DNA of 55,818 nucleotides from a bacterium (GCA_021785065.1 JAJYGQ010000001.1:1-55818); one strand, 5' to 3'. Numbered from the stretch's first letter, positions 3,301 through 30,040 are shown. Notes: generated by a model from the sequence alone, not told the origin. Numbers and translations: made by a program.

Positions 3301-3305
3301 CACGT

Positions 3306-3716: not shown

Positions 3717-3743
3717 CACGTATCGTTCTGTTTTTATTTTGTC

Positions 3744-5510: not shown

Positions 5511-5558
5511 AGTGATTACAGAGCGTGCTATACTAGTTAGTGAGCCCACCTATACATT

Positions 5559-5969
5559 ATGGAACAAAAAAATTCTTCGGACGGTAAGAAAATAATGATT
5601 GTTGATGATGACGCGTTTCTGCTCAATATCTACGGAACGCGCTTTGCTAAAAGTGGCTTTGTGGTCAACGAATTTGCTGATTCTACAGCAGCGCTCGAAA
5701 AAATTCGCAACGGTTTTACGCCTGATATCCTTCTTCTTGATGTACTTATGCCCGCAATGAATGGTCTTGATATGCTCGAAAAGTTACGTACGGAAAAACT
5801 TTTACCCGAGACAGTAACTGTGATTATTCTCACTAATCAGAGTGACTCAGCGGAAATAACTCGAGGAAAATCATTAGGTATTGACGGTTACATTATCAAG
5901 GCAACGAGTATTCCGTCGGAAGTCGTCGACACGGTTATTACTCTAAGTCAAAAACACACAAAAAAATAA
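5559..5969 (+). CDS. Single-domain response regulator (CheY-like receiver)
   Basis: IMIVDDD, LLLDVLMP phosphoacceptor Asp, LTN, YIIKA; no output domain. Confidence 0.9.
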   Translation: MEQKNSSDGKKIMIVDDDAFLLNIYGTRFAKSGFVVNEFADSTAALEKIRNGFTPDILLLDVLMPAMNGLDMLEKLRTEKLLPETVTVIILTNQSDSAEITRGKSLGIDGYIIKATSIPSEVVDTVITLSQKHTKK

Positions 5970-5972
5970 TTT

Positions 5973-7031: not shown

Positions 7032-7037
7032 TTGTCT

Positions 7038-8249
7038 ATGCTTTTTTCCTACAAAGCTCTTGATACTACTGGTGCCAAACGTGAAGGCACCATTGAAGCT
7101 ATCAATCAAGATGTTGCCATTGCATCATTGCAGCGGCGCGGTCTAGTAATTGTCTCCATTAAATCTCCCGAAGAAGGATCGCTCTTGGCGCGTCTCAGTA
7201 AAATCACTATTTTTACCACGATTAAAACAAAAGACGTTGTCGTGCTTTCTCGGCAGATGGCGGTGTTATTTGATGCCCAAGTGCCAGCTCTCCGAGTTTT
7301 TGGTTTGCTCGCCGCTGAATCAGAAAATCCAGCCCTCCGAAAAATTTTAAGTCAAATTTTCGACGACATCCAAGGTGGCAGCTCAATATCGAAAGCTTTA
7401 GAGCGTCACCCTCGCGTCTTCTCTTCGTTCTACGTCAATATCGTTAAAGCGGGTGAGGAGTCGGGCAAGCTCCAAGATTCACTACTCTATCTGGCTGATT
7501 ACTTGGATCGCAACTACGCTATCACCACCAAAGCTCGCAACGCACTCATTTACCCGACCTTCGTCATTGTGACGTTTGTTGCTGTGATGATCCTTATTTT
7601 TATCTACGTTATTCCAGAAATTAGCAACATTATTAAATCTTCCGGCGCATCTATTCCTATTTATACTACCGTCGTCATCGACATCTCCGCATTTCTCGTA
7701 AGCTACGGTATTTATGTCGGCATTGCTGCGCTTATCGCTATCGGTGTTGCGATATGGTACGTGCGGACGCCCGATGGTAAGGTACAATTTGATGAATTAA
7801 AAGTAGCGACGCCGATAGTGAGCGCGCTCTATCGCAAGCTCTATCTTGCCCGTATCGCTGACAACCTCTACACGATGCTCGTTTCTGGTATTACCACGCT
7901 CAAAGCCCTAGAAATCACCGCTGCGGTAGTTGATAACGAAGTCTATAGACGTATTCTTCTCGAAAGCGTGGAGCAAGTGAAAGCCGGCAAGGCTCTTTCT
8001 GACGTACTCTCGAGCCACCGCGACATTCCCAGTATTATGGTGCAAATGGTTAAAGTTGGCGAAGAAACCGGCCAGCTTGGTCCTATTTTAAAAACACTTG
8101 CTCGCTACTACGACCGCGAAGTCGATCAAGCTGTCGATACACTCGTCGACATGATTGAGCCAATTATGATTGTGGTGCTCGGCGTTGGTGTCGGTATCCT
8201 TATGGCCTCGGTGCTCGTACCTATCTATAATCTCGCCGGGAGTTTGTAA
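7038..8249 (+). CDS. pilC: Type IV pilus platform protein PilC (GspF family)
   Basis: Two GspF domains (AGEESGKL, VGEETGQL), IYP and EPIMIV TM segments. Confidence 0.95.
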   Translation: MLFSYKALDTTGAKREGTIEAINQDVAIASLQRRGLVIVSIKSPEEGSLLARLSKITIFTTIKTKDVVVLSRQMAVLFDAQVPALRVFGLLAAESENPALRKILSQIFDDIQGGSSISKALERHPRVFSSFYVNIVKAGEESGKLQDSLLYLADYLDRNYAITTKARNALIYPTFVIVTFVAVMILIFIYVIPEISNIIKSSGASIPIYTTVVIDISAFLVSYGIYVGIAALIAIGVAIWYVRTPDGKVQFDELKVATPIVSALYRKLYLARIADNLYTMLVSGITTLKALEITAAVVDNEVYRRILLESVEQVKAGKALSDVLSSHRDIPSIMVQMVKVGEETGQLGPILKTLARYYDREVDQAVDTLVDMIEPIMIVVLGVGVGILMASVLVPIYNLAGSL

Positions 8250-8264
8250 AAAAGTATAATTTAC

Positions 8265-8310
8265 TTATCCACAACTATTTTACGCAATCCCTTCATTTAT
8301 TGCGTATAAT
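8265..8310 (+). promoter_or_regulatory. Major pilin promoter with perfect DnaA box
   Basis: TTATCCACA at 8265-8273; TATAAT at 8305-8310. Confidence 0.6.
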
Positions 8311-8390
8311 AGTATTTACATCAGGCAGGTCACTGCGCGCGTCGGCACCGTGACAGGCCAGGATTTAAAAGTCAGATTAATTATTATCAA

Positions 8391-8834
8391 ATGAAAAAAC
8401 TTCAATCGAAAGGTTTTACCCTTATCGAACTCTTGGTGGTCATCGCCATCATCGGCATCCTGGCCGCCATCGTTCTTGCTTCGTTGAGTACTGCTCGTTC
8501 TAAGGCAGAAGGAGCTAAAGTTGAAAGTCAGCTTAACGAAATGCGTAGTGCTGCGGAAATTTATGATACGACTAATGGTAACTATAGTGGTAGTGGAACT
8601 GCTACAACTACAAGTTGCACTAGTGGTATATTTGCGGACACATCTTCTAATATGGCTACTTTAGTAGCTAATACCACAGCAATATCTGGTGTTACACTTG
8701 CCTGTCAGGCATTTGGAACAGGATGGTCTGCTGTAGCAACTTACTCAGCTCTGCCCAATGGCACCTTCTGTGTTGACTCAACTGGTGCTGCCACTTCAAC
8801 AACAGTTAATAGCAGTACTGGTTTGTGTAAATAG
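8391..8834 (+). CDS. pilA: Type IV pilin, probable major pilin
   Basis: KG/FTLIELLVVIAIIGILAAIV class III signal with Glu5; C-terminal Cys pairs; own promoter and strong terminator. Confidence 0.88.
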   Translation: MKKLQSKGFTLIELLVVIAIIGILAAIVLASLSTARSKAEGAKVESQLNEMRSAAEIYDTTNGNYSGSGTATTTSCTSGIFADTSSNMATLVANTTAISGVTLACQAFGTGWSAVATYSALPNGTFCVDSTGAATSTTVNSSTGLCK

Positions 8835-8862
8835 ACTTAAGGCACTACTTAAGTTAGTTTCG

Positions 8863-8893
8863 AACAAAATCCCCACCACGGGGATTTTGTTTT
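8863..8893 (+). terminator. Intrinsic terminator after major pilin
   Basis: AACAAAATCCCC-accac-GGGGATTTTGTT 12-bp stem ending in a T-rich run. Confidence 0.8.
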
Positions 8894-8918
8894 GGCGCAG
8901 ATGGCGTACAATGAAGCA

Positions 8919-9467
8919 ATGAATCGTCGCGGTTTTACGCTCATTGAGTTAATTATTGTTATCGGCATCATCGCTATTTTGGCCGGATTTATTTTGGCGA
9001 GCTATGGGCCGGCGAAGCAGCAGGCCCAAGATTCGCGGCGCGTTTCTGACATAGCGCAGCTACAGACGGCGCTTGAAGCATATTTCGAAGATCCGATAAA
9101 CGGGAGTCAGTATCCGCCAACAGAAGTTCAGACAAATGCAAATGGTGTCTTGATTCAACCTTGTAAGCCTGCAAGTGGCGCTGGTAGCAATCCTAAAACA
9201 TCTGGACTTGCCTGTTTGCCATATGGTGGTTATATCTCATCATTGCCTACTGATCCGCAAACAAAAGCCGCCTACGATTATTATGCTAATCCTACCGCGA
9301 ATCCTGATACGGGTACGCCCTACCAATCCTATTGTCTTGGGGCGAATCTCGCTGATACTAATGCGGCGGGTAATGCTCTGCAGAGCGCAAAAACAAGTTG
9401 CAGCGGCGTTACGTGGTGTCCGTTTTTAAATAATTCTTCTGACAATTACGTCGTCTGTCGACAGTAG
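8919..9467 (+). CDS. Type IV pilin / GspG-like pseudopilin
   Basis: RG/FTLIELIIVIGII, AQDSRRVSDIAQLQTALEAY, LPTDPQT. Confidence 0.88.
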   Translation: MNRRGFTLIELIIVIGIIAILAGFILASYGPAKQQAQDSRRVSDIAQLQTALEAYFEDPINGSQYPPTEVQTNANGVLIQPCKPASGAGSNPKTSGLACLPYGGYISSLPTDPQTKAAYDYYANPTANPDTGTPYQSYCLGANLADTNAAGNALQSAKTSCSGVTWCPFLNNSSDNYVVCRQ

Positions 9468-9500
9468 GGAAGTAAAGTTTGCTATAATGCGAGTAACATT

Positions 9501-10277
9501 ATGTCTCCCATTTTTCTCATTGTCGTCGCGTTCATTCTCGGTACGATTATCGGCAGTTTCCTCAATGTGCTCATTTTACGCTGGAATACTGGTGAATCGA
9601 TTGCAGTAGATAGGTCGCGGTGTTTTTCGTGCGGCCGAACGTTGCGCTGGTACGAGCTCATTCCGGTATTTAGTTTTCTTATCCAGGGCGGGCGTTGTCG
9701 GACCTGCGCTAGTCGGATTAGTTGGCAATACCCTTTAGTAGAAATGGGAACAGGGGTACTTTTTGCGCTGGTCGCGTGGCTTTTTCCGCCGCTTTCGCTT
9801 GTGGCGATACTCGCTGATGCGTTGTATTTGGCAATAATAAGCACACTCATGGTGATTTCCGTCTATGACCTCCGCCACAAAATCATTCCCGATCTCCTTG
9901 CATATTTTTTTGCTTTTTTGAGCATCGTACTTATTTTATTGCAGGCCAGCGTCGGTGTTTTTAGCTGGTGGAGTATTGCGGCGGGACCACTTTTGGCGTT
10001 GCCGCTCTTTTTGCTCTGGCTTATCTCCGGCGGCCGGTGGATGGGTCTCGGAGATAGTAAGCTTATGCTTGGCATTGGCTGGTTTCTCGGTCTTAATGCC
10101 GGCGGCGCCGCGCTCGTGTTAGCGTTTTGGATTGGCGCGATTGTGGGCATTGTGCTTATTGCCGCGAAGCATTTACGCTTAAAAAGCGAAGTGCCATTTG
10201 CTCCCTTCTTAATCATCGGCGCTCTGCTGGTCTTCTTTACCGGCCTCACCTTTACCAGTCTCGCCCTGTTGCTATGA
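9501..10277 (+). CDS. pilD: Prepilin peptidase/N-methyltransferase
   Basis: IGSFLNV, RSRCFSC...GRCRTC zinc motif, YDLRHKIIPD and GLGDSKL catalytic Asp motifs. Confidence 0.95.
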   Translation: MSPIFLIVVAFILGTIIGSFLNVLILRWNTGESIAVDRSRCFSCGRTLRWYELIPVFSFLIQGGRCRTCASRISWQYPLVEMGTGVLFALVAWLFPPLSLVAILADALYLAIISTLMVISVYDLRHKIIPDLLAYFFAFLSIVLILLQASVGVFSWWSIAAGPLLALPLFLLWLISGGRWMGLGDSKLMLGIGWFLGLNAGGAALVLAFWIGAIVGIVLIAAKHLRLKSEVPFAPFLIIGALLVFFTGLTFTSLALLL

Positions 10278-10987
10278 GATTTTTAAAGAAACATAAAATA
10301 GCTGGCTTCACGCTTGTCGAGCTTATGGTCGCGGTTGGCATCTATATTTTAATGGCCGCCCTCCTTTTTGCCAATCAAAATAAATTTAATCACAGTTTGT
10401 CGTTTTCGAATCTTGGCTACGATGTTGCACTCACTATTCGCCAGGCGCAGACGTACGGTTTTGCGGTGCAGGGGGAAAATAACACTAGCAACGGCGTGAC
10501 ATCATTTAGTAATGCTTTCGGTGTTCATTTCGATGGTAGCCATCCTTCCAGCTTCATTCTTTTTTATGAGCCGATTGTGTCGCCGCTCGGTAGTTCCGGG
10601 GGCGGTAGTATTCCCTTGGCATATGATGCGTGTACTAATTCAACAAATGATCCTACCTGCGGCGCACATCAAAAAACCCTTTCTACCTATAATCTTCAAA
10701 ATAATTATACAATCGCCGCGCTCTGTAATGAATCGGGTACGGGGCCAAGTGGTACGTGTGGTAAAACATGTTATTCCGTTTCATCTGGTGGATCGGCGAA
10801 TAATTATCTCGATATTATTTTCCAACGCCCCAACATTAACGCGTTCATTTTTAATCAGGTTAATTCTTCATCGCCACTTCCTCAAGCATCTATTGAGTTG
10901 AAATCGCCCGAAGGGGAGGCAGAATGTATCAACGTATACAGCAGCGGCGATATTGAGGTAAGCACGACAACTACGGCGTTGCCGTAA
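10274..10987 (+). CDS. Minor pilin (FimT/FimU-like)
   Basis: AG/FTLVELMVAVGI; ATG 10274 overlaps the pilD stop; the track start at 10127 is too long. Confidence 0.85.
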   Translation: MRFLKKHKIAGFTLVELMVAVGIYILMAALLFANQNKFNHSLSFSNLGYDVALTIRQAQTYGFAVQGENNTSNGVTSFSNAFGVHFDGSHPSSFILFYEPIVSPLGSSGGGSIPLAYDACTNSTNDPTCGAHQKTLSTYNLQNNYTIAALCNESGTGPSGTCGKTCYSVSSGGSANNYLDIIFQRPNINAFIFNQVNSSSPLPQASIELKSPEGEAECINVYSSGDIEVSTTTTALP

Positions 10988-11001
10988 GGACGCATGTTAT
11001 T

Positions 11002-11637
11002 ATGAAAATGTTCATGAAGAAAAAAAACCTAATCGCTGGCTTCACTCTCATCGAGGTACTCATCTCACTCCTTATTTTTTCTATTATTATCACCATAGCG
11101 GTTGGCGCGCTTTTTTCAATGGTTGATGCAGGCGAAAAGTCACGCTCCATTAATTCAGTGATGGAAAATCTCGATACGGCCCTAGAAACTATGGCGGAGA
11201 CGGTTCGGAGCGGTAGTAATTACGCAGGGTATTCAGCGGTAGTTAATGGTTCGTCGGCAGGGACGTGTTCAAGTCTTCCTTCTTCTTTGTCGCAAGCTTC
11301 TCCCGCTCCCGCATTATCGCTCAGTGTCTCGCCAACATCGTACCTCAATTTAGGTTTGCCATCGGGACAAACAATTTCTAGTATTGTGTATGGTTTGCAA
11401 AACAATCAAATCGTTGAAAACATAAATTATCATTACGCTGATGGTACCACTCATTCTACTGTCATTCCGCTCACTGCCGCTGAAGTACACGTCACTAATC
11501 TTTCGTTTTGGTTAAGTAATTGTGGTGCTATTTCGCCAGCAAAAGCCACTGTGCTTATGGTCGTACAAGGCTTTGCTGAGACCCGACAAAATAATAAGGC
11601 AGATTTTAATATTCAAACGAGCATGACTGCTCGATAA
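11002..11637 (+). CDS. Minor pilin (PilW-like)
   Basis: AG/FTLIEVLISLLIF prepilin motif. Confidence 0.85.
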   Translation: MKMFMKKKNLIAGFTLIEVLISLLIFSIIITIAVGALFSMVDAGEKSRSINSVMENLDTALETMAETVRSGSNYAGYSAVVNGSSAGTCSSLPSSLSQASPAPALSLSVSPTSYLNLGLPSGQTISSIVYGLQNNQIVENINYHYADGTTHSTVIPLTAAEVHVTNLSFWLSNCGAISPAKATVLMVVQGFAETRQNNKADFNIQTSMTAR

Positions 11638-11642
11638 GTTCT

Positions 11643-12293
11643 ATGAATTTATCTCATCACCATCATACAAAAGGATTTACGCTCATAGAGACGCTCATCT
11701 CGCTCCTTATTGTTGGTCTAGCTGTTACGGTAGCGACGGCAGCATTGCAAAGTAGTTTGCAGACTTCAGATTTCGTTGCCAATCAAATCACCGCTCGCTA
11801 CCTAGCCGAAGATGCTATGGAATATGTGCTTGCCCTTAGGGATGCTGGGGCCGCGACACCGCAGGGCTGGATGAATAATTTGATGCAGTGTGTTAATACC
11901 ACAGACACTGTAAACAATGGGGGAGTATTGTGTACTGTTGATACCTATAATCACACGCTACAAACGTACGGTACTTTTCCCGTGGCCGACTTAGGAACAA
12001 CATCAGTGACGGTATTACCGGGTCCGATTCCGTCGCTTGATGAGTGCTCTGTGTCTGCTAATGGTACCACCGTCAATGTTTTTGAACAAAATACTAATTG
12101 CACAAAATCAAAATTTACTAGAACAGTAAGTATTACTCCTGTTCAGCTTCTGCCTGGTATCTCGAGCAGTGATATGAATGCGTACAACGAAGCAGTAGTA
12201 ACCGTAAAGGTCAGTTGGGGCAGTGGTCCATTTTCTTCCGCCGAGTCGTACACGCTCTCCGAAGATATTTATAATTGGCAACCACCGCAATGA
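11643..12293 (+). CDS. Minor pilin (PilV-like)
   Basis: KG/FTLIETLISLLIV; C-terminal FTRTVSI...VTVKVSW. Confidence 0.85.
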   Translation: MNLSHHHHTKGFTLIETLISLLIVGLAVTVATAALQSSLQTSDFVANQITARYLAEDAMEYVLALRDAGAATPQGWMNNLMQCVNTTDTVNNGGVLCTVDTYNHTLQTYGTFPVADLGTTSVTVLPGPIPSLDECSVSANGTTVNVFEQNTNCTKSKFTRTVSITPVQLLPGISSSDMNAYNEAVVTVKVSWGSGPFSSAESYTLSEDIYNWQPPQ

Positions 12294-13747
12294 GAAATCG
12301 CTTCACAAAAAAAGGCTTCGCTCTTCTGTATGCTATGCTCGTCGTGGGCGCGATGATGAGTTTAGTTTTTGGAATTTTAAATATTGTCTTCAAACAAATT
12401 TCTCTCTCGGGCGTCAATAGAAATTCGGCGGTGGCTTTTTATTCCGCCGAGAGCGGCCTGGAGTGTGGTCGTTACTGGAGCACCTATGGCGCGTTTAATC
12501 CTGGTAATCCTGTTGTTTCGATGGCCATGCTCTCCACCTCTCCCTTCTCCACTATTGAATGTCTCGGTAACCCAATTGGAAGTGTCTCGTCCCAAGGCGT
12601 CGGTACTTGTCTAGGAAATACAGGTCAAAATTGCTCTCTGGTGAGCAACGGTGCCACCACTCTTATAAATCAAAATCTTAATGGTATTACTAATCCAGCC
12701 GGTTCGATTACTGATCCCACTACTGGGTTAACTGTGAATTTTTACGGCAACTACTTTACCTATGATCTGAGTAAGGCATATAGCAACTTAACCCCGTCGC
12801 CCCAAGCGCAGGTGAACATTTGGCAGTCAGATCAATTTGTTCCAACAGCTGCAGTTGCAACCACCACCACCGTTTTGTCTGCTGGTCAGACTGGTCTCGG
12901 ACCAACCGAAGTGCAGCGCGGTGCTGGTGAAATTGCCGGCATTCAACAGTGTCTCGCCCCCGCGTTTACGTACAACGTATATAATCCCTACTCTGGTGGT
13001 ACTGATGCTTATTATCCAACGCATTATACAAGTAATCAGAATTTTTCTTCAGCAGCCACTTCTTATTTTCCTGGTGTAAGTATTTCAAGTTTTGAAAATA
13101 ATGATTTTCCTAATACTTTAGGTCTCAAAGTCGGAACTCCCGCATTCGACTACCTTGCCTATCAGCCAGTCGATAATTGGTCGTTTACCTCGTCTAATTC
13201 TAATTTTTCTAACACAACACTTACACTTTCAGCGGTTCCTTTATCGGTAGGACCCTCAGTGAGTTCTTCATATGAATATAAATTTGGTTACTATTCAACT
13301 ACCGGTCTAACCTCAGGGCGAGGTGTTGATTATGCAACAACTACTGGGTTTGTAACGCTATACGACAGCAAAACAGGTGCAACACCCCAGACAATAGCGG
13401 CGGGTACTAAAAATATACACTTTGCGTTGTATATATTGAATACAGACGGAAAAACTACTCATGCGTTTTGGTCTACTAACGCTGCTGACGACTACTACAA
13501 CGGCACATATTTTGATGGCAATAATGGTAATAATCTCGGTGATACTAATAGTGTTAACGGTACCACCGGCTACAACCACGTCATCGTCCTTGCGACGCCA
13601 ATGCCGGGTAATATCAATGCTAATCCTAATAATTCATACACCCTTCTTTCGGGCAAATACGTTTTTGGATTCGGCGGGGTTACAGGAAGCTCGCCAACGA
13701 CCTACAGCGGTCTCATTATAGCCCTCCAACTCGACGGGTGCCCGTAA
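12290..13747 (+). CDS. PilX/GspK-like minor pilin with long C-terminal extension
   Basis: KG/FALLYAMLV lacking Glu5; AFYSAESGLE PilX motif; about 485 aa. Confidence 0.75.
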   Translation: MRNRFTKKGFALLYAMLVVGAMMSLVFGILNIVFKQISLSGVNRNSAVAFYSAESGLECGRYWSTYGAFNPGNPVVSMAMLSTSPFSTIECLGNPIGSVSSQGVGTCLGNTGQNCSLVSNGATTLINQNLNGITNPAGSITDPTTGLTVNFYGNYFTYDLSKAYSNLTPSPQAQVNIWQSDQFVPTAAVATTTTVLSAGQTGLGPTEVQRGAGEIAGIQQCLAPAFTYNVYNPYSGGTDAYYPTHYTSNQNFSSAATSYFPGVSISSFENNDFPNTLGLKVGTPAFDYLAYQPVDNWSFTSSNSNFSNTTLTLSAVPLSVGPSVSSSYEYKFGYYSTTGLTSGRGVDYATTTGFVTLYDSKTGATPQTIAAGTKNIHFALYILNTDGKTTHAFWSTNAADDYYNGTYFDGNNGNNLGDTNSVNGTTGYNHVIVLATPMPGNINANPNNSYTLLSGKYVFGFGGVTGSSPTTYSGLIIALQLDGCP

Positions 13748-13807: not shown

Positions 13808-13867
13808 TGTGGATAACTGCAGCGACCGCAGGCGTGCTAGCGGGGTACAATTGCAGTATTACTATAT
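13808..13867 (+). repeat. 60-nt promoter repeat copy 1 (DnaA box plus -10)
   Basis: 57/60 identical to 17336-17395; begins TGTGGATAA (reverse DnaA box); TACAAT at 13846-13851. Confidence 0.9.
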
Positions 13868-13879
13868 TTACCCATTACA

Positions 13880-16800
13880 ATGTCTTTTAAAAAGCATCTC
13901 GGTCTCATTTCTCTATTTTCTCTCTTTGCTATTTTGCCGATTAGTGCTTATGCGCAGAGCAATAGTACTTCTACACCGTCTAATACCAGCAGTTCGTCGC
14001 CGACAAATACGGCCAGTTGCTTTGATTACTATCATTTTGATAGTGTACAAGTAAATTTAACAAGCACATCGACGACAGTTGTTCCCGGTTCCAATATAAC
14101 TTTTACTGGTCACCTTATTAACAATAATTCATATCCGATTGTTGATGGCTCTGTGTACGTTAAGGTCTTTCGTCTTGACCAAAACATGAGCGTTGCTGAT
14201 CCTAATGGTCCACAAGTCGTCGATCAATTTATGGCGGCCGACCAGCTTAATCTTGCTGCTGGAAGTTCTACACCATTTGCATTCACTTGGCATGTACCAC
14301 AACAAACCATTACTGGTAACTATCAAATTGCTACCTTCTTTCAAACAGCTGACTCGTTCGAAGTGACCGGTTTAACATTTACTAACGATGTGATAGGGAA
14401 TACTGTTAATTTTGCTGTTCAGAGTCCACTTAAAAAAGTAGTTGGGTTTGATAAGACATCGGTAAAAGTTGACGGTAGTCCATACTTTTTCGCGACACCA
14501 CCACCGTTGGTTACTAACGGAGTAGCGACGGTTACTGCCACACTCGTCAATCCGACTGCTAATACAGTAACAGTTCCTGTTACATGGAGTGTCTATTCTT
14601 GGGATGGTCTTTCGTCAAGTCGCTTGATTTCTACAAGTAATACTTCAGTGAATATTCCAGCAGGAAAGAATGCTCCGGTCACTCTTACGATAAGCGATAC
14701 TTCTCATGCGGTTTATTATGTCGTAGCAGAAGCTGATTATAAAGATAGTAAGTCGTTTTTAGATATTCGTTTTGTCCGACCGTCAGTAAGTGAAACCAGA
14801 ATGTCCTTTGCTGGTTTAGCATCACCATTTCCATTACAGGCTGGCGCTACCTCAACTATCTTTGCGTGTGTTCATGGTATGACACAGGATGTGCCTTCGG
14901 GTGGTAAGGTGGTACTTTCTCTCGCTGATAACCAAGGTAACCCTATTACAAGCTATACTTATCAAGGTGGTATTACGGGTAATGTTATGGGTGTGAAAGA
15001 TACTTTTATACCTACAAAATCTTATAGTAATGTTACGCTTACTGCCGCACTTTATCAAAATGGTAGTTTGGTTTCTTCGCATAGCTTAACGTATGCTTGT
15101 AAAGCCATTGATCCATCAGCATGTCCGCAGTCGAGTTCGTCTTCACTATTTGGTAATCCTTTATTCGATACCCTGATCGCTCTTATTCTTATCATCATTA
15201 TTATTCTTGTGTGGTTGTTACGAAAAAAGAAACCGTCTATTCCTATTACTCCCATTACGCTTTTCTTCATCGCGGCGGTTGGTTTTACTGTTTTTTCTGT
15301 ACCACATGCAGCACACGCTGATTCAGTAGTGTGGGCAAATAACTTTCCTTACCAGTACAATTTAGATACTTATGTGGATATGAATCCTACTGGTGTTATC
15401 TGTTGGAAATGGGGGGCAAGTCAGAATTGGAAAATTAACCTATCGGATGTTATGAGTAATCCAGGTGCCTCTATTACTTATAATGCTTCGGTTATTAATG
15501 CAGCAACGGGGGCGGTTTTACCTGACAATGCAACAGTAGCCGCTGGAACAAAACTAATTTTTAAATTTGCGCCACATCAATATAATAATGTGTTCTGGTG
15601 GGGTACAGGTTACTATTACGGAACTCCGTATGGTATGTGGATGCCAAACGCTGCAATGCCATCCAGTAGTGACTTAGGAACGACCCCCTATTACTTTGAT
15701 GCTGCAGCATATGGTGGTGGAGAATGTAATTCTCCCGCAGAATATGTATATATTGGTTTATCTGTTGCTCCACCAGTACAACAGGTAACGTTTAGCGGCG
15801 CTGGTTCGAATGGGCTTACTTGTGGTGCACCTGGAGCAGATGGAAGTGTTACTTGTACAGTAAATTCTGGTGGTCCGATAATGGCAAGGTTTAATTTCAG
15901 TTCCACACAAGGAAATTTCTACGGAGAAATAGGAAATGCTTCTAATGGCAATGGAACTATTTATACTGCTGAAGTCCCGTTAACTAATGGTCAAGCCATT
16001 TCTATCCCATCTCAAGATATCTGGATTCCTCTAAACGTACAACCACCCCCTGTATCAGCCAGCATGAGCCTCGTAACGCCTGAGCCAATTTATACCAACC
16101 AACCCTTCACGCTTCACTGGAGTTCAACCAATGCTGATACATGTACGCCAAGTGGTACGGGATTCTCGACAAATTATAACGGCACCACGAATGCTCCCAA
16201 CGGATTTAACTCACCGCAAGTTTCTACTGCTGGTACTTATAATTACTTTGTAACGTGTACCCAACAATCTACCGGTATTACTCAAAAATCTAATGTTATT
16301 TCTGTAAATGTTACTGCACCACCAGCACCAATATCAGTCACTCCTACATGCTCAGCAAATAACACTGCGGTTACTTTGTCGTGGCCGGCGGTCGCGGGAG
16401 CCAGTCATTATATAGTGCAAACTGCTAGTACGAGCATAACACTCAACGAGACATCGCCAACTATTTCTGCTGGTCCGATTAGTATAAATCCCAATATTTC
16501 CTACAACTATAATGTTGCGGCTGACAATACTTCTTGGGAAGTGATGGCTTCAAAGACTGGTTCATTTACTTGTCCGTCAACTGTTCCCCCTGCACCCACT
16601 CCCACTGCTTCACTTTCTGTCTCAACGGGTGGAACGCAGCCAAAGACCTCTATTACTGTCGCAACGGGAACACCGGTGACATTCACCTGGGGATCAACCA
16701 ATGCCACGAGCTGTACTGGTCAGACCCCCCAGACTCCTGCTGGGGCCCCGATCTTCTCGACGGGGGGTAAAACAAGCGGATCTGTTCCACTTACCTTCAA

Positions 16801-17323
16801 TACGCCTAACACATACCAATATTCGGTAACCTGTTCGAATGCGTCTAGCGGTGCTTCCGCATCTGCTTCCGCATCCGCATCAAAGACATCGCCGCCGGTA
16901 ACGATCATTGTTACTCCATACCCGACACCTGTGCCGAATCCCAATCCTAACCCTAATCCTAACCCAAATCCAAATCCTAACCCGAACCCCACTCCCACCA
17001 AGCCAAGCTTAACATTCAGCAATAATAATTCCTGCACGCCAACACTGAGTTGGACAGCAGACATTGTGCCAGGGATAACTTGTACTATGAGCAATTCGCT
17101 GAACGACTCAGCGTGGAATGGCATTCTCCAAAATGGTAGCGGTTCAGATTATGTGATTGGCCAAGGATTCACTCCTCAGCAATTTGACGGTGCCACCTAC
17201 TCACTTTCGTGTAAAAATGGCAATGGCGACATGGCTTCGGCTCCCGCAGTGACGGTCAGTGTGCCAAGCTCATGCATCACTATCAGTGGCTCTGGCGGCG
17301 GTAACACCTTCACGCCGTTCTAA
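13880..17323 (+). CDS. Large secreted/surface protein with Ig-like modules, internal TM plus signal peptide, (NP)n linker
   Basis: N-terminal signal (SAYA), TM-RKKK-hydrophobic-AHA at aa 428-480, T/S/P/G-rich beta-sandwich repeats with paired Cys. Confidence 0.8.
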   Translation: MSFKKHLGLISLFSLFAILPISAYAQSNSTSTPSNTSSSSPTNTASCFDYYHFDSVQVNLTSTSTTVVPGSNITFTGHLINNNSYPIVDGSVYVKVFRLDQNMSVADPNGPQVVDQFMAADQLNLAAGSSTPFAFTWHVPQQTITGNYQIATFFQTADSFEVTGLTFTNDVIGNTVNFAVQSPLKKVVGFDKTSVKVDGSPYFFATPPPLVTNGVATVTATLVNPTANTVTVPVTWSVYSWDGLSSSRLISTSNTSVNIPAGKNAPVTLTISDTSHAVYYVVAEADYKDSKSFLDIRFVRPSVSETRMSFAGLASPFPLQAGATSTIFACVHGMTQDVPSGGKVVLSLADNQGNPITSYTYQGGITGNVMGVKDTFIPTKSYSNVTLTAALYQNGSLVSSHSLTYACKAIDPSACPQSSSSSLFGNPLFDTLIALILIIIIILVWLLRKKKPSIPITPITLFFIAAVGFTVFSVPHAAHADSVVWANNFPYQYNLDTYVDMNPTGVICWKWGASQNWKINLSDVMSNPGASITYNASVINAATGAVLPDNATVAAGTKLIFKFAPHQYNNVFWWGTGYYYGTPYGMWMPNAAMPSSSDLGTTPYYFDAAAYGGGECNSPAEYVYIGLSVAPPVQQVTFSGAGSNGLTCGAPGADGSVTCTVNSGGPIMARFNFSSTQGNFYGEIGNASNGNGTIYTAEVPLTNGQAISIPSQDIWIPLNVQPPPVSASMSLVTPEPIYTNQPFTLHWSSTNADTCTPSGTGFSTNYNGTTNAPNGFNSPQVSTAGTYNYFVTCTQQSTGITQKSNVISVNVTAPPAPISVTPTCSANNTAVTLSWPAVAGASHYIVQTASTSITLNETSPTISAGPISINPNISYNYNVAADNTSWEVMASKTGSFTCPSTVPPAPTPTASLSVSTGGTQPKTSITVATGTPVTFTWGSTNATSCTGQTPQTPAGAPIFSTGGKTSGSVPLTFNTPNTYQYSVTCSNASSGASASASASASKTSPPVTIIVTPYPTPVPNPNPNPNPNPNPNPNPNPTPTKPSLTFSNNNSCTPTLSWTADIVPGITCTMSNSLNDSAWNGILQNGSGSDYVIGQGFTPQQFDGATYSLSCKNGNGDMASAPAVTVSVPSSCITISGSGGGNTFTPF

Positions 17324-17335
17324 GGCCACATATTT

Positions 17336-17395
17336 TGTGGATAACTGCAGTGACCGCAGGCGTGTTAGCGGGGTACAATTACAGTATTACTATAT
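17336..17395 (+). repeat. 60-nt promoter repeat copy 2 (DnaA box plus -10)
   Basis: 57/60 identical to 13808-13867; TACAAT at 17374-17379. Confidence 0.9.
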
Positions 17396-17405
17396 CTTAC
17401 AAAAT

Positions 17406-20400
17406 ATGAGCTTATATAAGGGTTGTCTTCTCGCGTCTTTTCTCGCTATCATTGCACTTGTTGTGCCGTCAGTCGTGTTTGCACAGACTTCAACATCCAC
17501 AACTCAAGCGAGGGCACTTGATCAGGTTACGCAGCTATATGTTCAAAACCTAAAACTTAATGCAACAAGTTATAAGGCAGGAGATACAGTACAAGGAAGT
17601 TTTTCTCTTGTTGATGATAATACTATTGATGCCTCAAATGTTTATTATCGTGTTGCGTACATGGGTAATTATACCGGTCATAATCTTCCCCAGTATCAAT
17701 ATTTTACAGGAAATATCGTGGGCCCTATTTTTGTTCCAGCTACTGGCGCAACTCACGAAACATTCTCTTTTACCTTACCTAATATACAAGTAGGTACTAG
17801 TAGTGTTGGTATTGAAGTCCAGGCGCTTAACCAAGCGGGACGGCTCTATAGTTGGGATGATGCGCAGTTTACTCTTATTAAGGGGGGGAACGTACCGACA
17901 CTAAATGTCTCTAGTGTCTTCCTTAAGGTTGGTACAACCACTTTTTCTCCTACAACAGGTCCTACAATATTCAGTGATGAAACTGGTCAACTCGTGGCGA
18001 AACTATATAATCCGGGCAATGCGAGTGTCACAGTTACTCCTCAAATTTCTATTTATAATCGAGTTATTGGTACGTCAGTTCTCCTTGCAACCCCATCATT
18101 GCCTGTTACAGTGACTCCTCAACATACGGCTACTGTTACCTACTCTCTACCAACCTTTCATAATACTCCTGGTGTTTATGCGGGTACCCTCGATTTTACT
18201 GATGCACAAAATGTTGTTCGTTCAGCACAATATCAATTTCGTTATATTGTTCCTGGTGCTATAGCGACTATTCAGTCGGTTCTCTTGAATCCTATGAATC
18301 AGGTGCGTGCCAATCAACCGGTTCAGGTGACTATTGTGTACACAGGAGCACCCGATAACATCTTAACCTATCAAAGTGCTAATCAAGGTCAGGGACAAAT
18401 AAGCACTACACTCTATGATCGCGACGGCACAAAACTTTCTCAGGCTACAACGACCGGATCACTCAACGGTACGGTCAAAAAAAATGTTACTCTTACTCCT
18501 GAACAGGCGGGACAAGGTCTTTTTGTTAAAGTAGTTATTAGTAAAAATGGTAAGGTGTTAAGTACCTACACTACTGTGTCACCCCCAGCTCTCGCTTCTC
18601 ACACTAGTTCACTTACGGGTTTATGGTATTTACTTGCTTCGATGACTATTCTCGGTGTCCTTATAGGATATCTCTGGTGGAAGAAAAAGCGTGGTTCTGC
18701 AATTCCACTTGCTATTCTCTTTGTCGTTATTATGTTTACATTTCCTTCCGTAACTCCTGTACACGCTGAAACACTTAGTACTGACGCTTGTACGCAAGGT
18801 ATGGTGGGAGCGTGTTTTGATGGCTGGACGTATACAAATATCGTCAATACTTACGGCGACTATTATCCAGGATATTACCTCCTCACTCCCGATGATATCA
18901 CTCTCTATGGCGATCCTCTCGGATGGCCAATGGGTTCTGCTGGTGATGGTATTGTCGTAGGAGAGGGGGAGACATTCGATGTTCCTCTTTTTGTAAATGC
19001 AAACACCTGTCTTAATTCAGCTGAGCAGATAACAGGCAGTGCTACGTTTAATGGCCAAACAAACTCTTTTCAGAGTAGTTTTACTGCCCAAGCTTCATCA
19101 ACAGATCATTCTACTTATGCGCAGACAGATTATCTTAATGCGGGTACGTACGTTGCTCCCACAACTCCTGGGACATATCAAGTAAAATTTTCAATAACTA
19201 ATACGTGGTTAAATGGTGGACCTAATGGCATTCCAGTGTATACAACAGTCTATGGATATTTAAATGTATATGTTATTGCACCGGCATCAGGATCATCAAT
19301 CACTGCTCAGGGAGAATGCAATCCTTACGATAATAATTATCCCGCTATTCAGGTTGGGTTGCCAGGTAGTGCGTATGCAGGCCCCACTCTCGTTAGTGCA
19401 GGTTGGCTTAATTACAATCTAGATGTTTCTACTGATAATTTTCAATCACCAAATTACTGGTGGGAGCAAATTAATACGGCGTACGCAGTTTCTATTTATC
19501 CATTACTTATTGAAGCGGGTGGTTACAATGATCCTAACTTTTTTATGCCAAATAATAATCAAGGTAATCTATATCTTTTACCTGGTACCACCTATTATCT
19601 CCGTATGGATGATCCGGGTGTTAGTTACGGAACTTCTATATCGACAACAATACCCGGTAATTGTGCAGTGCCGCCCGTTCCCGTAGTGACACTTACTGCT
19701 TCATCTTCTTCAATAACACTTGGCTCGAGTGATTTGCTTACTTGGACATCAATAAACGTGCAATCATGTAATAGTGCTTTCTCTTCTTCTAGTGCTACGA
19801 ATGGTTCTGCTTCTGTAACGCCTTCTCAGACGGGAACATCAACGTATACTATAACGTGTGTAGATTCTAGTGGAAACGATGTGAGTTCATCAGCAAGTAT
19901 TGATGTGGTAAGTGCACCCCCACCCCCACCACCATCTGTTACCCTTACCCCAACCAGTCAAACAATCATTCTTGGTCAGAGTGCCTCTATTTCATCAACG
20001 GTAACAGCAACATCACCTGCAACTATTTCATCATGTACTCTATCAAGTGGTGGTACTTCTCAAACAGTTACACCTAATACGCTTATTTCAGAGGCACCTA
20101 CACAACTAGGAGATACGAGTTATTCGATGACGTGTACAGACTCTAACGGTAATTCTGCTACCGCACCCTCAACAATTACTACAGTTTTGCCGACATTCTC
20201 ATTTACTGCTCCAACGAGTCCGGTTCCATCGAATACCTCCTTTAATCTACAGTGGAATTTTACGACACCCTCTGGTCTTACTATGCGCGTGCCGCATCCT
20301 TCCTTGTGGCAAAATATGTTGGCGACGCTTGGTCTAGAACCCGCTCCCGCATATGCCGCAACATCAGGAGACACATTCACCTGTGATCTTTCTTGGAGTA

Positions 20401-20972
20401 CTGCCTCATCAGGTATCAGCGCTTTATGGAAAAATTCTAGTGGCGTATGGTCCTCGTGGTCAAGCGCTCCCAGTACCCAAAGTGTTTCAGTATCATATGA
20501 CGGAACAGGTGTTGGAAGTGGTGTGTGGCCGGTAAAATTGACAAATACAGGAACCAGTCCAGCTTCAGTGTCGTTTATGCTCCAAAATTGTGTTGATACA
20601 AACGGTAATACATTACCCACCCAACAGCCTACTGTCACTGTGAATCCACTTAATCCAGTCATTTCTAACTTCTCATTCAGCAATACCTGCTCAGATCCCA
20701 ATCTTACGCTTGATGTGTCTAGTCAAGGCTCGGTCTCGTGCACAGTTACTGGTCCATCATTTAGTCAAACATATACAGGCACTCCCTCGAGTACTTTTGG
20801 CTCGGCTATCAGTCAGACAATTCCGACGAGTGCGCAAAGTGGTGCTACTTATTCCGTTAGTTGTACGAATAGCGGTGGTAGTAGCGGGTCACAAACAGCA
20901 ACATTTAGTCCAACTTCTACCTGTACTCCCGCATCGTCTTCGGGTGGCAGTACCAATTTCCTTCAATTTTAA
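17406..20972 (+). CDS. Large secreted/surface protein, architectural paralog of 13880-17323
   Basis: ATG 17406 gives a signal peptide (VVFA/Q); TM-KKKR-hydrophobic-VHA at aa 403-454; Ig-like repeats (YTITC, YSMTC, YSVSC). Confidence 0.8.
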   Translation: MSLYKGCLLASFLAIIALVVPSVVFAQTSTSTTQARALDQVTQLYVQNLKLNATSYKAGDTVQGSFSLVDDNTIDASNVYYRVAYMGNYTGHNLPQYQYFTGNIVGPIFVPATGATHETFSFTLPNIQVGTSSVGIEVQALNQAGRLYSWDDAQFTLIKGGNVPTLNVSSVFLKVGTTTFSPTTGPTIFSDETGQLVAKLYNPGNASVTVTPQISIYNRVIGTSVLLATPSLPVTVTPQHTATVTYSLPTFHNTPGVYAGTLDFTDAQNVVRSAQYQFRYIVPGAIATIQSVLLNPMNQVRANQPVQVTIVYTGAPDNILTYQSANQGQGQISTTLYDRDGTKLSQATTTGSLNGTVKKNVTLTPEQAGQGLFVKVVISKNGKVLSTYTTVSPPALASHTSSLTGLWYLLASMTILGVLIGYLWWKKKRGSAIPLAILFVVIMFTFPSVTPVHAETLSTDACTQGMVGACFDGWTYTNIVNTYGDYYPGYYLLTPDDITLYGDPLGWPMGSAGDGIVVGEGETFDVPLFVNANTCLNSAEQITGSATFNGQTNSFQSSFTAQASSTDHSTYAQTDYLNAGTYVAPTTPGTYQVKFSITNTWLNGGPNGIPVYTTVYGYLNVYVIAPASGSSITAQGECNPYDNNYPAIQVGLPGSAYAGPTLVSAGWLNYNLDVSTDNFQSPNYWWEQINTAYAVSIYPLLIEAGGYNDPNFFMPNNNQGNLYLLPGTTYYLRMDDPGVSYGTSISTTIPGNCAVPPVPVVTLTASSSSITLGSSDLLTWTSINVQSCNSAFSSSSATNGSASVTPSQTGTSTYTITCVDSSGNDVSSSASIDVVSAPPPPPPSVTLTPTSQTIILGQSASISSTVTATSPATISSCTLSSGGTSQTVTPNTLISEAPTQLGDTSYSMTCTDSNGNSATAPSTITTVLPTFSFTAPTSPVPSNTSFNLQWNFTTPSGLTMRVPHPSLWQNMLATLGLEPAPAYAATSGDTFTCDLSWSTASSGISALWKNSSGVWSSWSSAPSTQSVSVSYDGTGVGSGVWPVKLTNTGTSPASVSFMLQNCVDTNGNTLPTQQPTVTVNPLNPVISNFSFSNTCSDPNLTLDVSSQGSVSCTVTGPSFSQTYTGTPSSTFGSAISQTIPTSAQSGATYSVSCTNSGGSSGSQTATFSPTSTCTPASSSGGSTNFLQF

Positions 20973-29882: not shown

Positions 29883-29926
29883 TTAAAAAAAATATACTAC
29901 TATTCATTTTCAGCGTGCTTGCGCAT

Positions 29927-29999: not shown

Positions 30000-30040
30000 C
30001 CCTGTGGTATAATAAGGTTTATTCGTTTAGACTAATGTAT

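What the first reader, a model, noticed from the sequence alone, without database searches (positions are those of the whole stretch)
15161..18770. Bacterial polyprotein adhesins with an internal, cleavable-looking second signal peptide
Seen in both paralogs: signal peptide, about 400 aa extracellular region, TM helix, basic cluster, second hydrophobic helix, then an SPase-I-like site. Protein 1 reads LIALILIIIIILVWLL-RKKK-PSIPITPITLFFIAAVGFTVFSVPH-AAHA/DSVV (nt 15161-15322, cut after aa 480). Protein 2 reads LWYLLASMTILGVLIGYLWW-KKKR-GSAIPLAILFVVIMFTFPSVTP-VHA/ETLS (nt 18612-18770, cut after aa 454). Established: n-h-c regions with Pro and A-x-A define SPase I substrates, and internal signals are typical of viral glycoprotein polyproteins. 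Inference: one ORF yields a membrane-anchored N-domain and a separately exported 670-730 aa Ig-repeat passenger in 1:1 stoichiometry, possibly an anchor/chaperone plus filament or adhesin pair.
Basis: partly seen in the sequence, partly recalled or inferred. Interest (0 to 1): 0.66.

Follow-up and report, generated by a model that had tools for sequence, protein, structure and literature searches.

The report
Fused surface proteins keeping internal signal peptide
Two neighbouring genes of an uncultured ultra-small (Patescibacteria) bacterium each encode a membrane-anchored surface protein fused to a secreted protein, with the secreted partner's export signal kept in the middle, so one chain is probably cut into two proteins during export.

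Summary
Both ORFs (13880-17323; 17406-20972) read: signal peptide, about 400-aa domain, TM helix, basic loop, second hydrophobic segment, A-x-A, then a 667/734-aa passenger.

It is not chance. The N-domain family has about 1,500 cluster representatives, seemingly all Patescibacteria. It occurs in two states. In the fused state it looks like the window. In the split state, gene A stops after the TM helix and basic tail. Gene B follows within a few bases and begins with an ordinary N-terminal signal peptide. That peptide ends at the same A-x-A / [K/E/D]-S-V-x-W junction. The internal segment is therefore the retained signal peptide of the downstream gene.

Among 62 distinct fused proteins, -1 is Ala in 56, and 54 obey the -3/-1 rule (14% expected). 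A rough tree implies at least 16 switches between fused and split states.

The best reading is a Sec-exported polyprotein cut by signal peptidase I into an anchored three-β-sandwich protein and a released or docked passenger. Cleavage itself is inferred, not shown. Adhesin function and a pilus link are unsupported: pilus-gene synteny holds in only 2-6 of 80 loci. No Pfam, NCBIfam or PDB relative was found. The mechanism has a bacterial precedent (FbcH); the family appears undescribed.

The parts
13809..13871 (+). Conserved upstream element, copy 1. It is about 63 nt, about 95% identical to copy 2, and contains a promoter-like TACAAT. It ends 8 nt before the protein 1 start codon.
   Evidence: Alignment. 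The 44-nt core matches only at these two places in the window, with 0 expected by chance.
13880..17323 (+). Protein 1 ORF (1147 aa plus stop): a fused anchor-passenger precursor.
   Evidence: homologs.
13880..13954 (+). N-terminal signal peptide of protein 1 (aa 1-25, ...ISAYA/QSNS).
   Evidence: Sequence. The same A-x-A/Q pattern occurs across the family's N-terminal signal peptides.
13955..15169 (+). Exported N-domain of protein 1 (aa 26-430). It forms three tandem β-sandwich domains and carries the family motif C-F-D-Y-Y-x-F-G-S-V-Q.
   Evidence: AlphaFold2 model with pLDDT 86.5. Foldseek gives only generic macroglobulin-, FnIII- or Ig-like hits. Family alignment.
15170..15220 (+). TM1 of protein 1 (aa 431-447, TLIALILIIIIILVWLL). 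It acts as a stop-transfer anchor. In split relatives this is the C-terminal anchor of gene A.
15221..15232 (+). Cytoplasmic basic loop RKKK (aa 448-451). It doubles as the n-region of the internal signal peptide.
   Evidence: Across the family the loop has a median of 7 aa and a net charge of +4.
15233..15319 (+). Internal signal peptide, h- and c-regions (aa 452-480, PSIPITPITLFFIAAVGFTVFSVPHAAHA). The predicted signal peptidase I cut lies after A480, between nt 15319 and 15320.
   Evidence: It corresponds to the N-terminal signal peptides of split passenger genes.
15320..17320 (+). Passenger of protein 1 (aa 481-1147). It starts DSVVW. It has a conserved head domain (W-x-G-T-G...S-P-Y-G-x-W), then Ig/PKD-like repeats and a P-N repeat linker, and ends ...NTFTPF.
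   Evidence: Model pLDDT is 77. No PDB or viral structural match was found.
17337..17400 (+). Conserved upstream element, copy 2. It starts 14 nt after the protein 1 stop codon and ends 5 nt before the protein 2 start codon.
17406..20972 (+). Protein 2 ORF (1188 aa plus stop): a fused anchor-passenger precursor and distant paralog of protein 1.
   Evidence: relatives P0180 and P0181.
17406..17483 (+). N-terminal signal peptide of protein 2 (aa 1-26, ...PSVVFA/QTST).
18618..18680 (+). TM1 of protein 2 (aa 405-425, GLWYLLASMTILGVLIGYLWW).
18681..18692 (+). Basic loop KKKR of protein 2 (aa 426-429).
18693..18767 (+). Internal signal peptide of protein 2 (aa 430-454, GSAIPLAILFVVIMFTFPSVTPVHA). 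The predicted cut lies after A454, between nt 18767 and 18768.
   Evidence: Protein 2-type relatives keep small-x-small sites, ASA/S and ADA/A.
18768..20969 (+). Passenger of protein 2 (aa 455-1188). It starts ETLST and ends ...TNFLQF. Its head domain is not detectably related to the protein 1-type head domain.
   Evidence: hhalign probability 0.1%.

Best explanation
Protein 1 and protein 2 are natural fusions of a two-gene cassette that is widespread in Patescibacteria.

Gene A encodes a Sec-exported protein of three β-sandwich domains. It is held in the membrane by a C-terminal TM helix with a short basic cytoplasmic tail. Gene B, immediately downstream and often overlapping, encodes a secreted multi-domain β-rich protein with an ordinary N-terminal signal peptide.

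In the fused form the stop codon, start codon and n-region between A and B are lost. The basic tail of A now serves as the n-region of B's signal peptide.

The proposed export sequence is as follows:
- The N-terminal signal peptide starts translocation of the N-domain.
- TM1 stops transfer, leaving the basic loop in the cytoplasm.
- The internal signal peptide re-inserts N-in/C-out and restarts translocation of the passenger.
- Signal peptidase I cuts after A-H-A (aa 480) in protein 1 and after V-H-A (aa 454) in protein 2.

The products would match those of the split cassette: an anchored N-module, now carrying the spent signal peptide as a second helix, and a free passenger made in 1:1 ratio at the same translocon. 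The passenger probably docks back onto the anchor or the cell surface.

Shown: the architecture, the correspondence of the internal segment to N-terminal signal peptides, conservation of the site, and repeated fusion/fission. Inferred: actual cleavage, a physical A-B complex, and any surface or adhesion role.
For: 1. All 8 first-round fused proteins have exactly three hydrophobic segments and a small-x-small site. The -1 Ala is invariant at 20-35% identity.

2. Split versions exist.
- In L008, P0028 (498 aa, ending in TM plus basic tail and TAA) is followed 3 nt later by a 1222-aa gene that starts with its own signal peptide (...IVKA/ASVQ). P0029 is followed by a 1237-aa gene in the same way. 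This is the same tandem two-pair layout as the window, but as four genes.
- In L005, a 515-aa gene A overlaps passenger gene P0038, whose signal peptide ends ...KTEA/ASKSV.
- In most of the 24 species-representative loci where a long ORF starts near the gene A stop, that ORF starts -8 to +22 nt from the stop. It opens with a signal peptide ending A-x-A / [K/E/D]SVxW, the same mature N-terminus as in fused forms.

3. A heuristic -3/-1 site score separates these segments from controls.
- Fused internal segments: mean 4.31, 82% at or above 3.8.
- Split passenger signal peptides: mean 4.64, 88%.
- Family N-terminal signal peptides: mean 4.52, 85%.
- TM1 control: mean 2.21, 30%.
- Random positions: mean 2.65, 28%.

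4. When the site is defined only from the mature side, 56 of 62 distinct fused proteins have Ala at -1 (background 7%). 54 of 62 obey the -3/-1 rule (14% expected).

5. The loop has a median of 7 aa and a net charge of +4, which fits the positive-inside rule.

6. A neighbour-joining tree of N-domains needs at least 16 changes between fused and split states. Split pairs are real: stop codons are TAA 23, TAG 8 and TGA 8, and gene B is in a different frame in 21 of 24 pairs.

7. The fused state is common: 38 of 80 loci and 114 of the best 150 representatives, with a bimodal length distribution.

8. Pro at -6 in protein 1, and at -4 and -8 in protein 2, are typical c-region helix breakers (sequence).

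9. An h-region shorter than a signal-anchor is the established determinant of signal peptidase cleavage (PMC2120157 abstract).
Against: - No direct evidence of cleavage exists: no proteomics and no dedicated predictor could be run.
- The distance from the last charged loop residue to the site is somewhat longer in fused forms (median 24) than in split signal peptides (median 20). It is comparable to TM1 (median 20). Some internal segments could therefore behave as uncleaved signal-anchors.
- The A-E-A/K-S-V-x-W conservation could partly reflect structure, because residues 2-8 of the passenger form the first β-strand in the model.
- Protein 2-type evidence is thin. Only two relatives were found, both fused. 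One has its small-x-small site 14 residues beyond a 20-residue helix.
- The sequences are related by descent, so counts and the binomial p-value overstate independence.
- The tree is a rough neighbour-joining tree.
Confidence: 0.7

Rival explanations
1. Uncleaved helical hairpin. TM1 and segment 2 stay together as a two-helix anchor, and both large domains remain on one polypeptide at the cell surface. The A-x-A motif would be a relic or a structural linker.
For: - The topology is the same with or without cleavage.
- AlphaFold2 models both segments as helices (427-449 and 458-472).
- The loop-to-site distance in fused forms (median 24) is longer than in split signal peptides (median 20).
- P0180 and P0181 have second helices of about 20 residues.
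Against: - The -1 Ala (56 of 62) and the -3/-1 rule (54 of 62) are kept at the level of genuine N-terminal signal peptides, despite about 30% overall identity and at least 16 independent state changes. A relic should decay.
- Split forms release the passenger from the anchor, so an uncleaved fusion would change the product each time the state flips.
Confidence: 0.2
2. Internal translation initiation. The passenger is made as a separate protein from a start codon inside the fused ORF, so no polyprotein processing is needed.
For: - This genome hardly uses Shine-Dalgarno motifs (2 of 25 starts), so internal starts cannot be excluded from sequence.
- Protein 1 has GTG (V444) and TTG (L446) just before RKKK. 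A start there would give a plausible signal peptide, MWLLRKKK....
- 27 of 136 fused proteins have a Met in the loop, against 10.7% expected. These are probable relic start codons.
Against: - 80% of fused proteins have no Met in the loop.
- Protein 1 has no ATG between TM1 and the site.
- Protein 2 has ATG only inside TM1 (M413) or inside the h-region (M443).
- Split genes nearly always start with ATG.
- Val and Leu codons in a TM helix are expected by chance.
- Even if internal initiation occurs, the full-length chain is still made and still carries the site.
Confidence: 0.05
3. Artefact or pseudogene. The fusions come from assembly or frameshift errors, or from recoded stop codons, and do not represent real proteins.
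For: All data are from metagenome assemblies. Some Patescibacteria relatives recode TGA.
Against: - The fused architecture occurs in 136 distinct sequences from many studies and assemblers.
- Length is cleanly bimodal.
- Split genes end mostly in TAA or TAG, and the partner is in another frame in 21 of 24 pairs.
- Both window ORFs are intact over more than 1100 codons.
Confidence: 0.02
4. Dedicated type IV pilus accessory or tip adhesin, functionally tied to the pilus locus directly upstream in the window.
For: In the window the pair follows PilM/O/B/T/C, pilin, PilD and four minor pilin-like genes on the same strand.
Against: - PilB/PilT homologs lie within 7 kb in only 6 of 80 related loci, and prepilin motifs in 2 of 80.
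- Other homolog loci sit next to ftsA/ftsZ, pth or glycolysis genes.
- Each gene has its own conserved promoter-like element.
- Neither protein has a prepilin (class III) signal.
Confidence: 0.08

Closest known systems
[quoted passage not shown] The paper itself is not held, so details are from my own knowledge.
   Same: One bacterial ORF gives two mature membrane or exported proteins. The upstream part ends with a TM helix whose end faces the cytoplasm. An internal Sec-type signal peptide follows and is removed by signal peptidase, releasing the downstream exported domain.
   Different: - There is no sequence or fold relationship.
- In FbcH the upstream part is a polytopic cytochrome, not an exported β-sandwich ectodomain with its own N-terminal signal peptide.
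- FbcH is a respiratory enzyme.
- Here the family has hundreds of members and flips repeatedly between fused and split states.
- Cleavage here is only inferred.
Viral glycoprotein precursor polyproteins with internal signal peptides, for example the orthobunyavirus Gn-NSm-Gc precursor processed by host signal peptidase (PMC6784171).
   Same: The layout is ectodomain, TM, short cytoplasmic stretch, internal signal peptide, next ectodomain. Co-translational cleavage gives stoichiometric partners that assemble at the same membrane.
   Different: - It is a eukaryotic ER system encoded by a virus, with no homology.
- The passenger fold has no significant match in the viral structure library.
- The bacterial family also exists as two separate genes.
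Clostridioides difficile SlpA S-layer precursor (my own knowledge).
   Same: A single secreted precursor is cut into two surface proteins that stay associated in 1:1 ratio on a cell without an outer membrane.
   Different: - SlpA is cut by a dedicated cysteine protease (Cwp84) after export, not at an internal signal peptide.
- It has no TM hairpin.
- It is anchored through cell-wall-binding repeats.
- There is no homology.
Sortase/exosortase-type C-terminal sorting signals (signature motif, TM helix, basic cluster).
   Same: Gene A ends in a TM helix plus basic cluster, the last two elements of such tripartite signals.
   Different: No conserved signature motif (LPXTG, PEP, PGF and so on) precedes TM1. 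That stretch is variable in the alignment. No sortase-like neighbour was seen. The helix is best read as a plain stop-transfer anchor.

Membership tests
Sec-type (signal peptidase I) signal peptide | Positively charged n-region | tested here: met
   RKKK in protein 1 and KKKR in protein 2. Across 136 fused proteins the loop has a median of 7 aa and a net charge of +4.
Sec-type (signal peptidase I) signal peptide | Hydrophobic h-region, shorter than a typical TM anchor and ended by helix breakers | tested here: inconclusive
   The hydrophobic cores are followed by Pro/Gly/Ser-rich c-regions, with Pro at -6 in protein 1 and at -4 and -8 in protein 2. However, the loop-to-site length has a median of 24 in fused forms, against 20 in split signal peptides and 20 for TM1. 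No dedicated predictor was available.
Sec-type (signal peptidase I) signal peptide | Small neutral residues at -3 and -1, and no Pro at +1 | tested here: met
   The sites are A-H-A/D and V-H-A/E. In 62 fused proteins, -1 is Ala in 56 and the rule holds in 54, against 14% expected. Scores equal those of true N-terminal signal peptides and exceed controls.
Sec-type (signal peptidase I) signal peptide | The corresponding segment acts as an N-terminal signal peptide in relatives | tested here: met
   Split passenger genes start with this segment and share the mature N-terminus [K/E/D]SVxW.
Sec-type (signal peptidase I) signal peptide | Cleavage demonstrated experimentally | not testable with these tools
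   This needs N-terminal sequencing, proteomics or tagged expression.
Bacterial polyprotein processed at an internal signal peptide (FbcH-type mechanism) | A single ORF in which the upstream part ends with a TM helix whose C-terminus is cytoplasmic, followed by a signal peptide and an exported domain | tested here: met
   Architecture. The positive loop fits the positive-inside rule.
Bacterial polyprotein processed at an internal signal peptide (FbcH-type mechanism) | Two mature proteins are produced from one translation product | not testable with these tools
   This is inferred from equivalence to the split two-gene form.
Bacterial polyprotein processed at an internal signal peptide (FbcH-type mechanism) | Homology to cytochrome b/c1 | tested here: not met
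   No Pfam, NCBIfam or PDB cytochrome hits were found, and the folds are β-sandwiches. The resemblance is in mechanism, not in family membership.
Sortase/exosortase-type C-terminal sorting signal | Conserved signature motif immediately before the TM helix | tested here: not met
   The stretch between the conserved Cys pair (C407, C415) and TM1 is variable, with no LPXTG-, PEP- or PGF-like motif.
Type IV pilus component or pilus-associated adhesin | Class III (prepilin) signal G/FTLxE | tested here: not met
   Absent from protein 1 and protein 2. The N_methyl Pfam motif hits only the upstream pilin genes.
Type IV pilus component or pilus-associated adhesin | Conserved synteny with pilus genes | tested here: not met
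   PilB/PilT homologs occur in 6 of 80 loci and prepilin motifs in 2 of 80.
Any curated protein family (Pfam-A, NCBIfam) or solved structure | A significant profile or structure match | tested here: not met
   - Pfam gives only a sub-threshold DUF4131 hit on the TM region.
- NCBIfam gives none.
- PDB sequence search gives E >= 0.02.
- Foldseek gives generic multi-β-sandwich hits with TM <= 0.28 for the N-domain, and nothing at E < 0.01 for the passenger head in the PDB. The viral library gives only two weak hits, with best E = 1.3e-3 and TM 0.28.

The most novel reading that the evidence does not exclude
Patescibacteria carry a lineage-wide two-part surface system. A membrane dock (three β-sandwiches plus a TM helix) is made together with interchangeable secreted passengers. 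The retained internal Sec signal peptide acts as a natural 'cut-here' linker, so genes can fuse and split freely without changing the products. This would be the first large natural family of signal-peptidase-processed bacterial polyproteins. After cleavage the passenger would re-dock on the anchor, perhaps through its conserved C-terminal ...P-x-x-x-E-x-COOH or W-K-E-V-A-P tail. The resulting surface structure might help these wall-less-periplasm epibionts contact host cells.
Probability: 0.25. Interest if true: 0.75.

Novelty: new member of a known kind. Interest (0 to 1): 0.57.

Why it matters
Internal signal peptides cut by signal peptidase are textbook for viral and some eukaryotic polyproteins. 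In bacteria they are known from very few cases.

This is an undescribed protein family with about 1,500 cluster representatives and no Pfam or NCBIfam model. Nature has built the fused and the split version many times. That gives a ready-made comparative system for three questions:
- When does a signal peptide work internally?
- How is 1:1 co-export used by cells with no periplasm to trap secreted partners?
- How do gene fusions of exported proteins evolve?

There is also a practical consequence. Genome annotation and localisation predictors would mislabel these ORFs as two-pass membrane proteins and miss a major secreted or surface protein of Patescibacteria. The biology of that group, including host attachment, is largely unknown.

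Tried and rejected
- **Curated families and structures.** Pfam, NCBIfam and PDB sequence searches gave nothing significant for either protein or for the family profile. Foldseek of the N-domain gave only generic multi-β-sandwich proteins at low TM-score. The passenger head gave no significant PDB or viral match. No function can be read from fold.
- **Type IV pilus link.** Rejected as a family feature.
- **Linkage to signal peptidase or ftsZ.** Linkage to signal peptidase (S26), ftsA and ftsZ was seen in the first two homolog loci. It holds in only 2-3 of 80 loci, so I treat it as coincidence.
- **Sortase-like sorting signal at TM1.** No conserved motif was found.
- **Stop-codon recoding or read-through as the cause of 'split' genes.** Rejected on stop-codon types and reading frames.
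- **Relatedness of the two passenger heads.** hhalign finds none.
- **Structure prediction with locus-derived sequences.** The alignment was rebuilt from admissible database proteins.
- **Literature.** Searches for bacterial internal signal peptides or polyproteins, and for Patescibacteria surface proteins, found no description of this family. The FbcH paper is not held.

Full report
**1. Observation**

Protein 1 is the ORF 13880-17323 (1147 aa). Protein 2 is best started at ATG 17406 (1188 aa). The mechanical ORF start at GTG 17259 lies in a repeated upstream element.

Each protein has exactly three hydrophobic segments:
- an N-terminal signal peptide (...AYA/Q and ...VFA/Q);
- a TM helix at aa 431-447 (protein 1) or 405-425 (protein 2), followed by RKKK or KKKR;
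- a second hydrophobic segment ending P-H-A-A-H-A/D (cut after aa 480) or P-V-H-A/E (cut after aa 454).

The passengers are 667 and 734 aa. The two proteins are distant paralogs, 23% identical over the N-domain plus hairpin. No other ORF in the window has this layout.

**2. The layout is a family trait**

A first search found six relatives at 31-37% identity, one labelled Patescibacteria. All six have the same three hydrophobic segments and a small-x-small site: IHA/D, VQA/E, AEA/K (three times) and TYA/A.

In the alignment of the eight proteins the -1 Ala is one of only 21 invariant columns.

A profile of the N-domain run against 1.84 billion cluster representatives finds 1,528 proteins at E <= 1e-3 and 923 at E <= 1e-30. 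The best 150 fall into two clean length classes: 36 shorter than 560 aa and 114 of 686 aa or more.

A scan of one genome per GTDB species found 174 relatives. The 80 listed loci mostly carry Patescibacteria/CPR names (Kaiser-, Moran-, Paceibacterota, Parcubacteria and others). About a third are labelled Saccharibacteria, and a dozen carry labels such as Bdellovibrionales, 'archaeon' or 'uncultured bacterium' that I read as binning labels rather than true taxonomy.

**3. What the internal segment is**

The short class is the N-domain alone: signal peptide, three β-sandwiches, TM helix, basic tail, stop.

In locus L008, P0028 (498 aa) ends ...MKRGRRGGKGLKK-TAA. Three bases later a 1222-aa gene starts MLYDFFKKISSKKYIPYAGIVCIAVGVALFAFGISPSYIVKA/ASVQ. 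P0029 and a 1237-aa gene follow in the same way. This is the window's tandem arrangement written as four genes instead of two.

In L005 a 515-aa anchor gene overlaps the gene for P0038. P0038 starts with its own signal peptide...GKTEA/ASKSV, and continues with the same conserved head domain as the passenger of protein 1.

Of the 80 species-representative loci, 38 are fused, 39 are split and 3 are truncated. In 24 split loci a long ORF starts close to the gene A stop. For most of them it starts -8 to +22 nt from the stop, often as an ATGA overlap. It opens with a signal peptide ending A-x-A followed by [K/E/D]-S-V-x-W.

Fused proteins have the same mature N-terminus: AEA/KSVxW in most, and AHA/DSVVW in protein 1. 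The 'internal signal peptide' therefore corresponds to the ordinary N-terminal signal peptide of the downstream gene. In the fusion, the basic tail of the anchor replaces the n-region.

**4. Is the site maintained?**

No SignalP was available, so I used a transparent -3/-1 score with controls.

| Segment class | Mean score | Share at or above 3.8 |
|---|---|---|
| Fused internal segments | 4.31 | 82% |
| Split passenger signal peptides | 4.64 | 88% |
| N-terminal signal peptides of the family | 4.52 | 85% |
| TM1 (control) | 2.21 | 30% |
| Random positions (control) | 2.65 | 28% |

To avoid circularity I also defined the site from the mature side only, using the motif [KEDN][SDTG]xxW.
- In 62 distinct fused proteins, -1 is Ala in 56 (background 7%).
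- -3 is A, V, T or S in 53.
- 54 of 62 obey the rule (14% expected). For split genes the figure is 12 of 13.

The loop between the helices has a median of 7 residues and a net charge of +4.

The sequences are related by descent, so these counts are not independent. Even so, overall identity is only about 30%.

**5. Fusion and fission recur**

A neighbour-joining tree of 109 N-domains needs at least 16 changes between the fused and split states. Several fused proteins sit next to split ones, for example L085 with L067 and L088, and L012 and L030 with L055.

Split pairs are real genes. Stop codons are TAA 23, TAG 8 and TGA 8, and the passenger gene is in another frame in 21 of 24 pairs.

A Met survives in the loop of 27 of 136 fused proteins, against 10.7% expected. 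This is consistent with relic start codons. 80% have none.

Protein 1 has no ATG between TM1 and the site. Protein 2 has ATG only inside TM1 or inside the h-region.

**6. What the parts look like**

The N-domain model is confident (pLDDT 86.5). It shows three tandem β-sandwiches followed by two helices. Foldseek returns only generic macroglobulin-, FnIII- or Ig-like multi-domain proteins at low TM-score.

The conserved passenger head (W-x-G-T-G...S-P-Y-G-x-W) models at pLDDT 77. It has no significant PDB or viral match.

No Pfam, NCBIfam or PDB sequence relative exists.

The head domain of protein 2's passenger is not detectably related to that of protein 1. Its only relatives, P0180 and P0181, are also fused, with ADA/A (displaced) and ASA/S sites. 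The anchor module therefore pairs with different passengers.

**7. Genomic context**

In the window the two genes follow a complete type IV pilus locus: PilM, PilO, PilB, PilT, PilC, pilin, PilD and minor pilins.

This is not conserved. PilB/PilT lie nearby in 6 of 80 loci and prepilin motifs in 2 of 80. Other loci sit by ftsA/ftsZ, pth, signal peptidase or sugar metabolism genes.

Each window gene is preceded by its own copy of a 63-nt element that is about 95% identical between the copies and is found nowhere else in the window.

**8. Mechanism and rivals**

Most likely (0.7) the chain is exported in two rounds through Sec and cut by signal peptidase I after the internal A-x-A. This reproduces the two products of the split cassette in 1:1 ratio at one translocon. 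That is a plausible advantage for cells without a periplasm, where a secreted partner would otherwise diffuse away.

That a short h-region favours cleavage over anchoring is established (PMC2120157).

The rivals are:
- The main rival (0.2) is an uncleaved hairpin. The somewhat longer loop-to-site distance in fused forms (24 against 20) and the helical model leave room for it. The maintained site argues against it.
- Internal initiation (0.05) cannot be excluded in a genome that barely uses Shine-Dalgarno motifs. It is not needed, and most members lack a start codon.
- Artefact (0.02) is excluded by numbers and reading frames.
- A surface-complex or adhesin role is inference only.

**9. Comparison with known systems**

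The mechanism matches the FbcH cytochrome b/c1 precursor of Bradyrhizobium. The reference was seen, and the details are from my own knowledge. It also matches viral glycoprotein precursors cut at internal signal peptides (PMC6784171).

There is no homology to either. The family is not a member of any curated family and fails the tests for sortase-type signals and pilus components.

I found no paper describing it.

I rate it a new, large and evolutionarily dynamic member of a known but rare kind of mechanism. Cleavage remains to be demonstrated.

Noticed in passing
window 13809-13871 and 17337-17400: A 63-nt element, about 95% identical between its two copies, sits just upstream of both start codons, although the coding sequences are only about 23% identical. 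It contains a promoter-like GTGACC-18-TACAAT and a partly palindromic CTGCAG-GACCGCAG. It occurs nowhere else in the window. It is probably a shared promoter or operator giving co-regulation.
   Followed up: partly
C-termini of passengers: window 17300-17320 and 20949-20969; loci L008, L023, L036, L073 and others; P0003, P0005, P0072 and others: Passenger proteins end in a conserved extreme C-terminal motif. The penultimate residue is Glu in 86 of 151 distinct C-termini. One class reads [VI]-x-[VI]-x-P-x-x-x-E-x-COOH (for example VNVVPGIVEF, VEVVPTATEI). Another reads N-W-K-E-V-A-P. Protein 1 and protein 2 have a variant...NTFTPF and ...TNFLQF. It could be a docking or sorting tag and appears undescribed.
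   Followed up: partly
window 953-13747: A complete type IV pilus gene cluster lies on the + strand: PilM, a PilN-like ORF, PilO, PilB, PilT, PilC, major pilin, PilD prepilin peptidase, three N_methyl minor pilins, and a 490-aa PilX-like protein with no family match.
   Followed up: partly
window 18768-19700 compared with 15320-16099: The passenger head domains of the two paralogs are unrelated by profile comparison (hhalign probability 0.1%). The same anchor-plus-signal module therefore carries different cargo.
   Followed up: yes
L008 10001-20437: Another Patescibacteria contig has the same tandem duplication, but as four genes: anchor, passenger, anchor, passenger. The gaps are 1-3 nt. This is a direct split counterpart of the window's arrangement.
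   Followed up: yes
Loci L009, L013, L016, L017, L019, L021, L037 and others: About 15 of 39 split loci have an anchor gene with no passenger gene next to it. The next genes are GAPDH, rplC or a transposase. The anchor module may therefore also work alone, or with a partner encoded elsewhere.
   Followed up: partly
window about 50958-55818: A very large ORF (more than 1,600 aa) with an N-terminal signal peptide (...GNVYA/AEKT) runs off the end of the window. It is another large secreted or surface protein.
   Followed up: no
window, 25 gene starts: Only 2 of 25 start codons are preceded by a Shine-Dalgarno-like motif. Several genes start with TTG or GTG. Start-codon choice in this genome cannot be judged by ribosome-binding sites.
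   Followed up: partly
window 27135-27911 (-): An additional prepilin-type (N_methyl) gene lies far from the main pilus locus, next to a tRNA cluster (tRNA-Met x2, tRNA-Asp).
   Followed up: no
window 29915-30925 and 29927-30001: The mechanically listed 336-aa ORF overlaps tRNA-Thr (GGT) at its 5' end, so its true start, if it is a gene, must lie further downstream.
   Followed up: no
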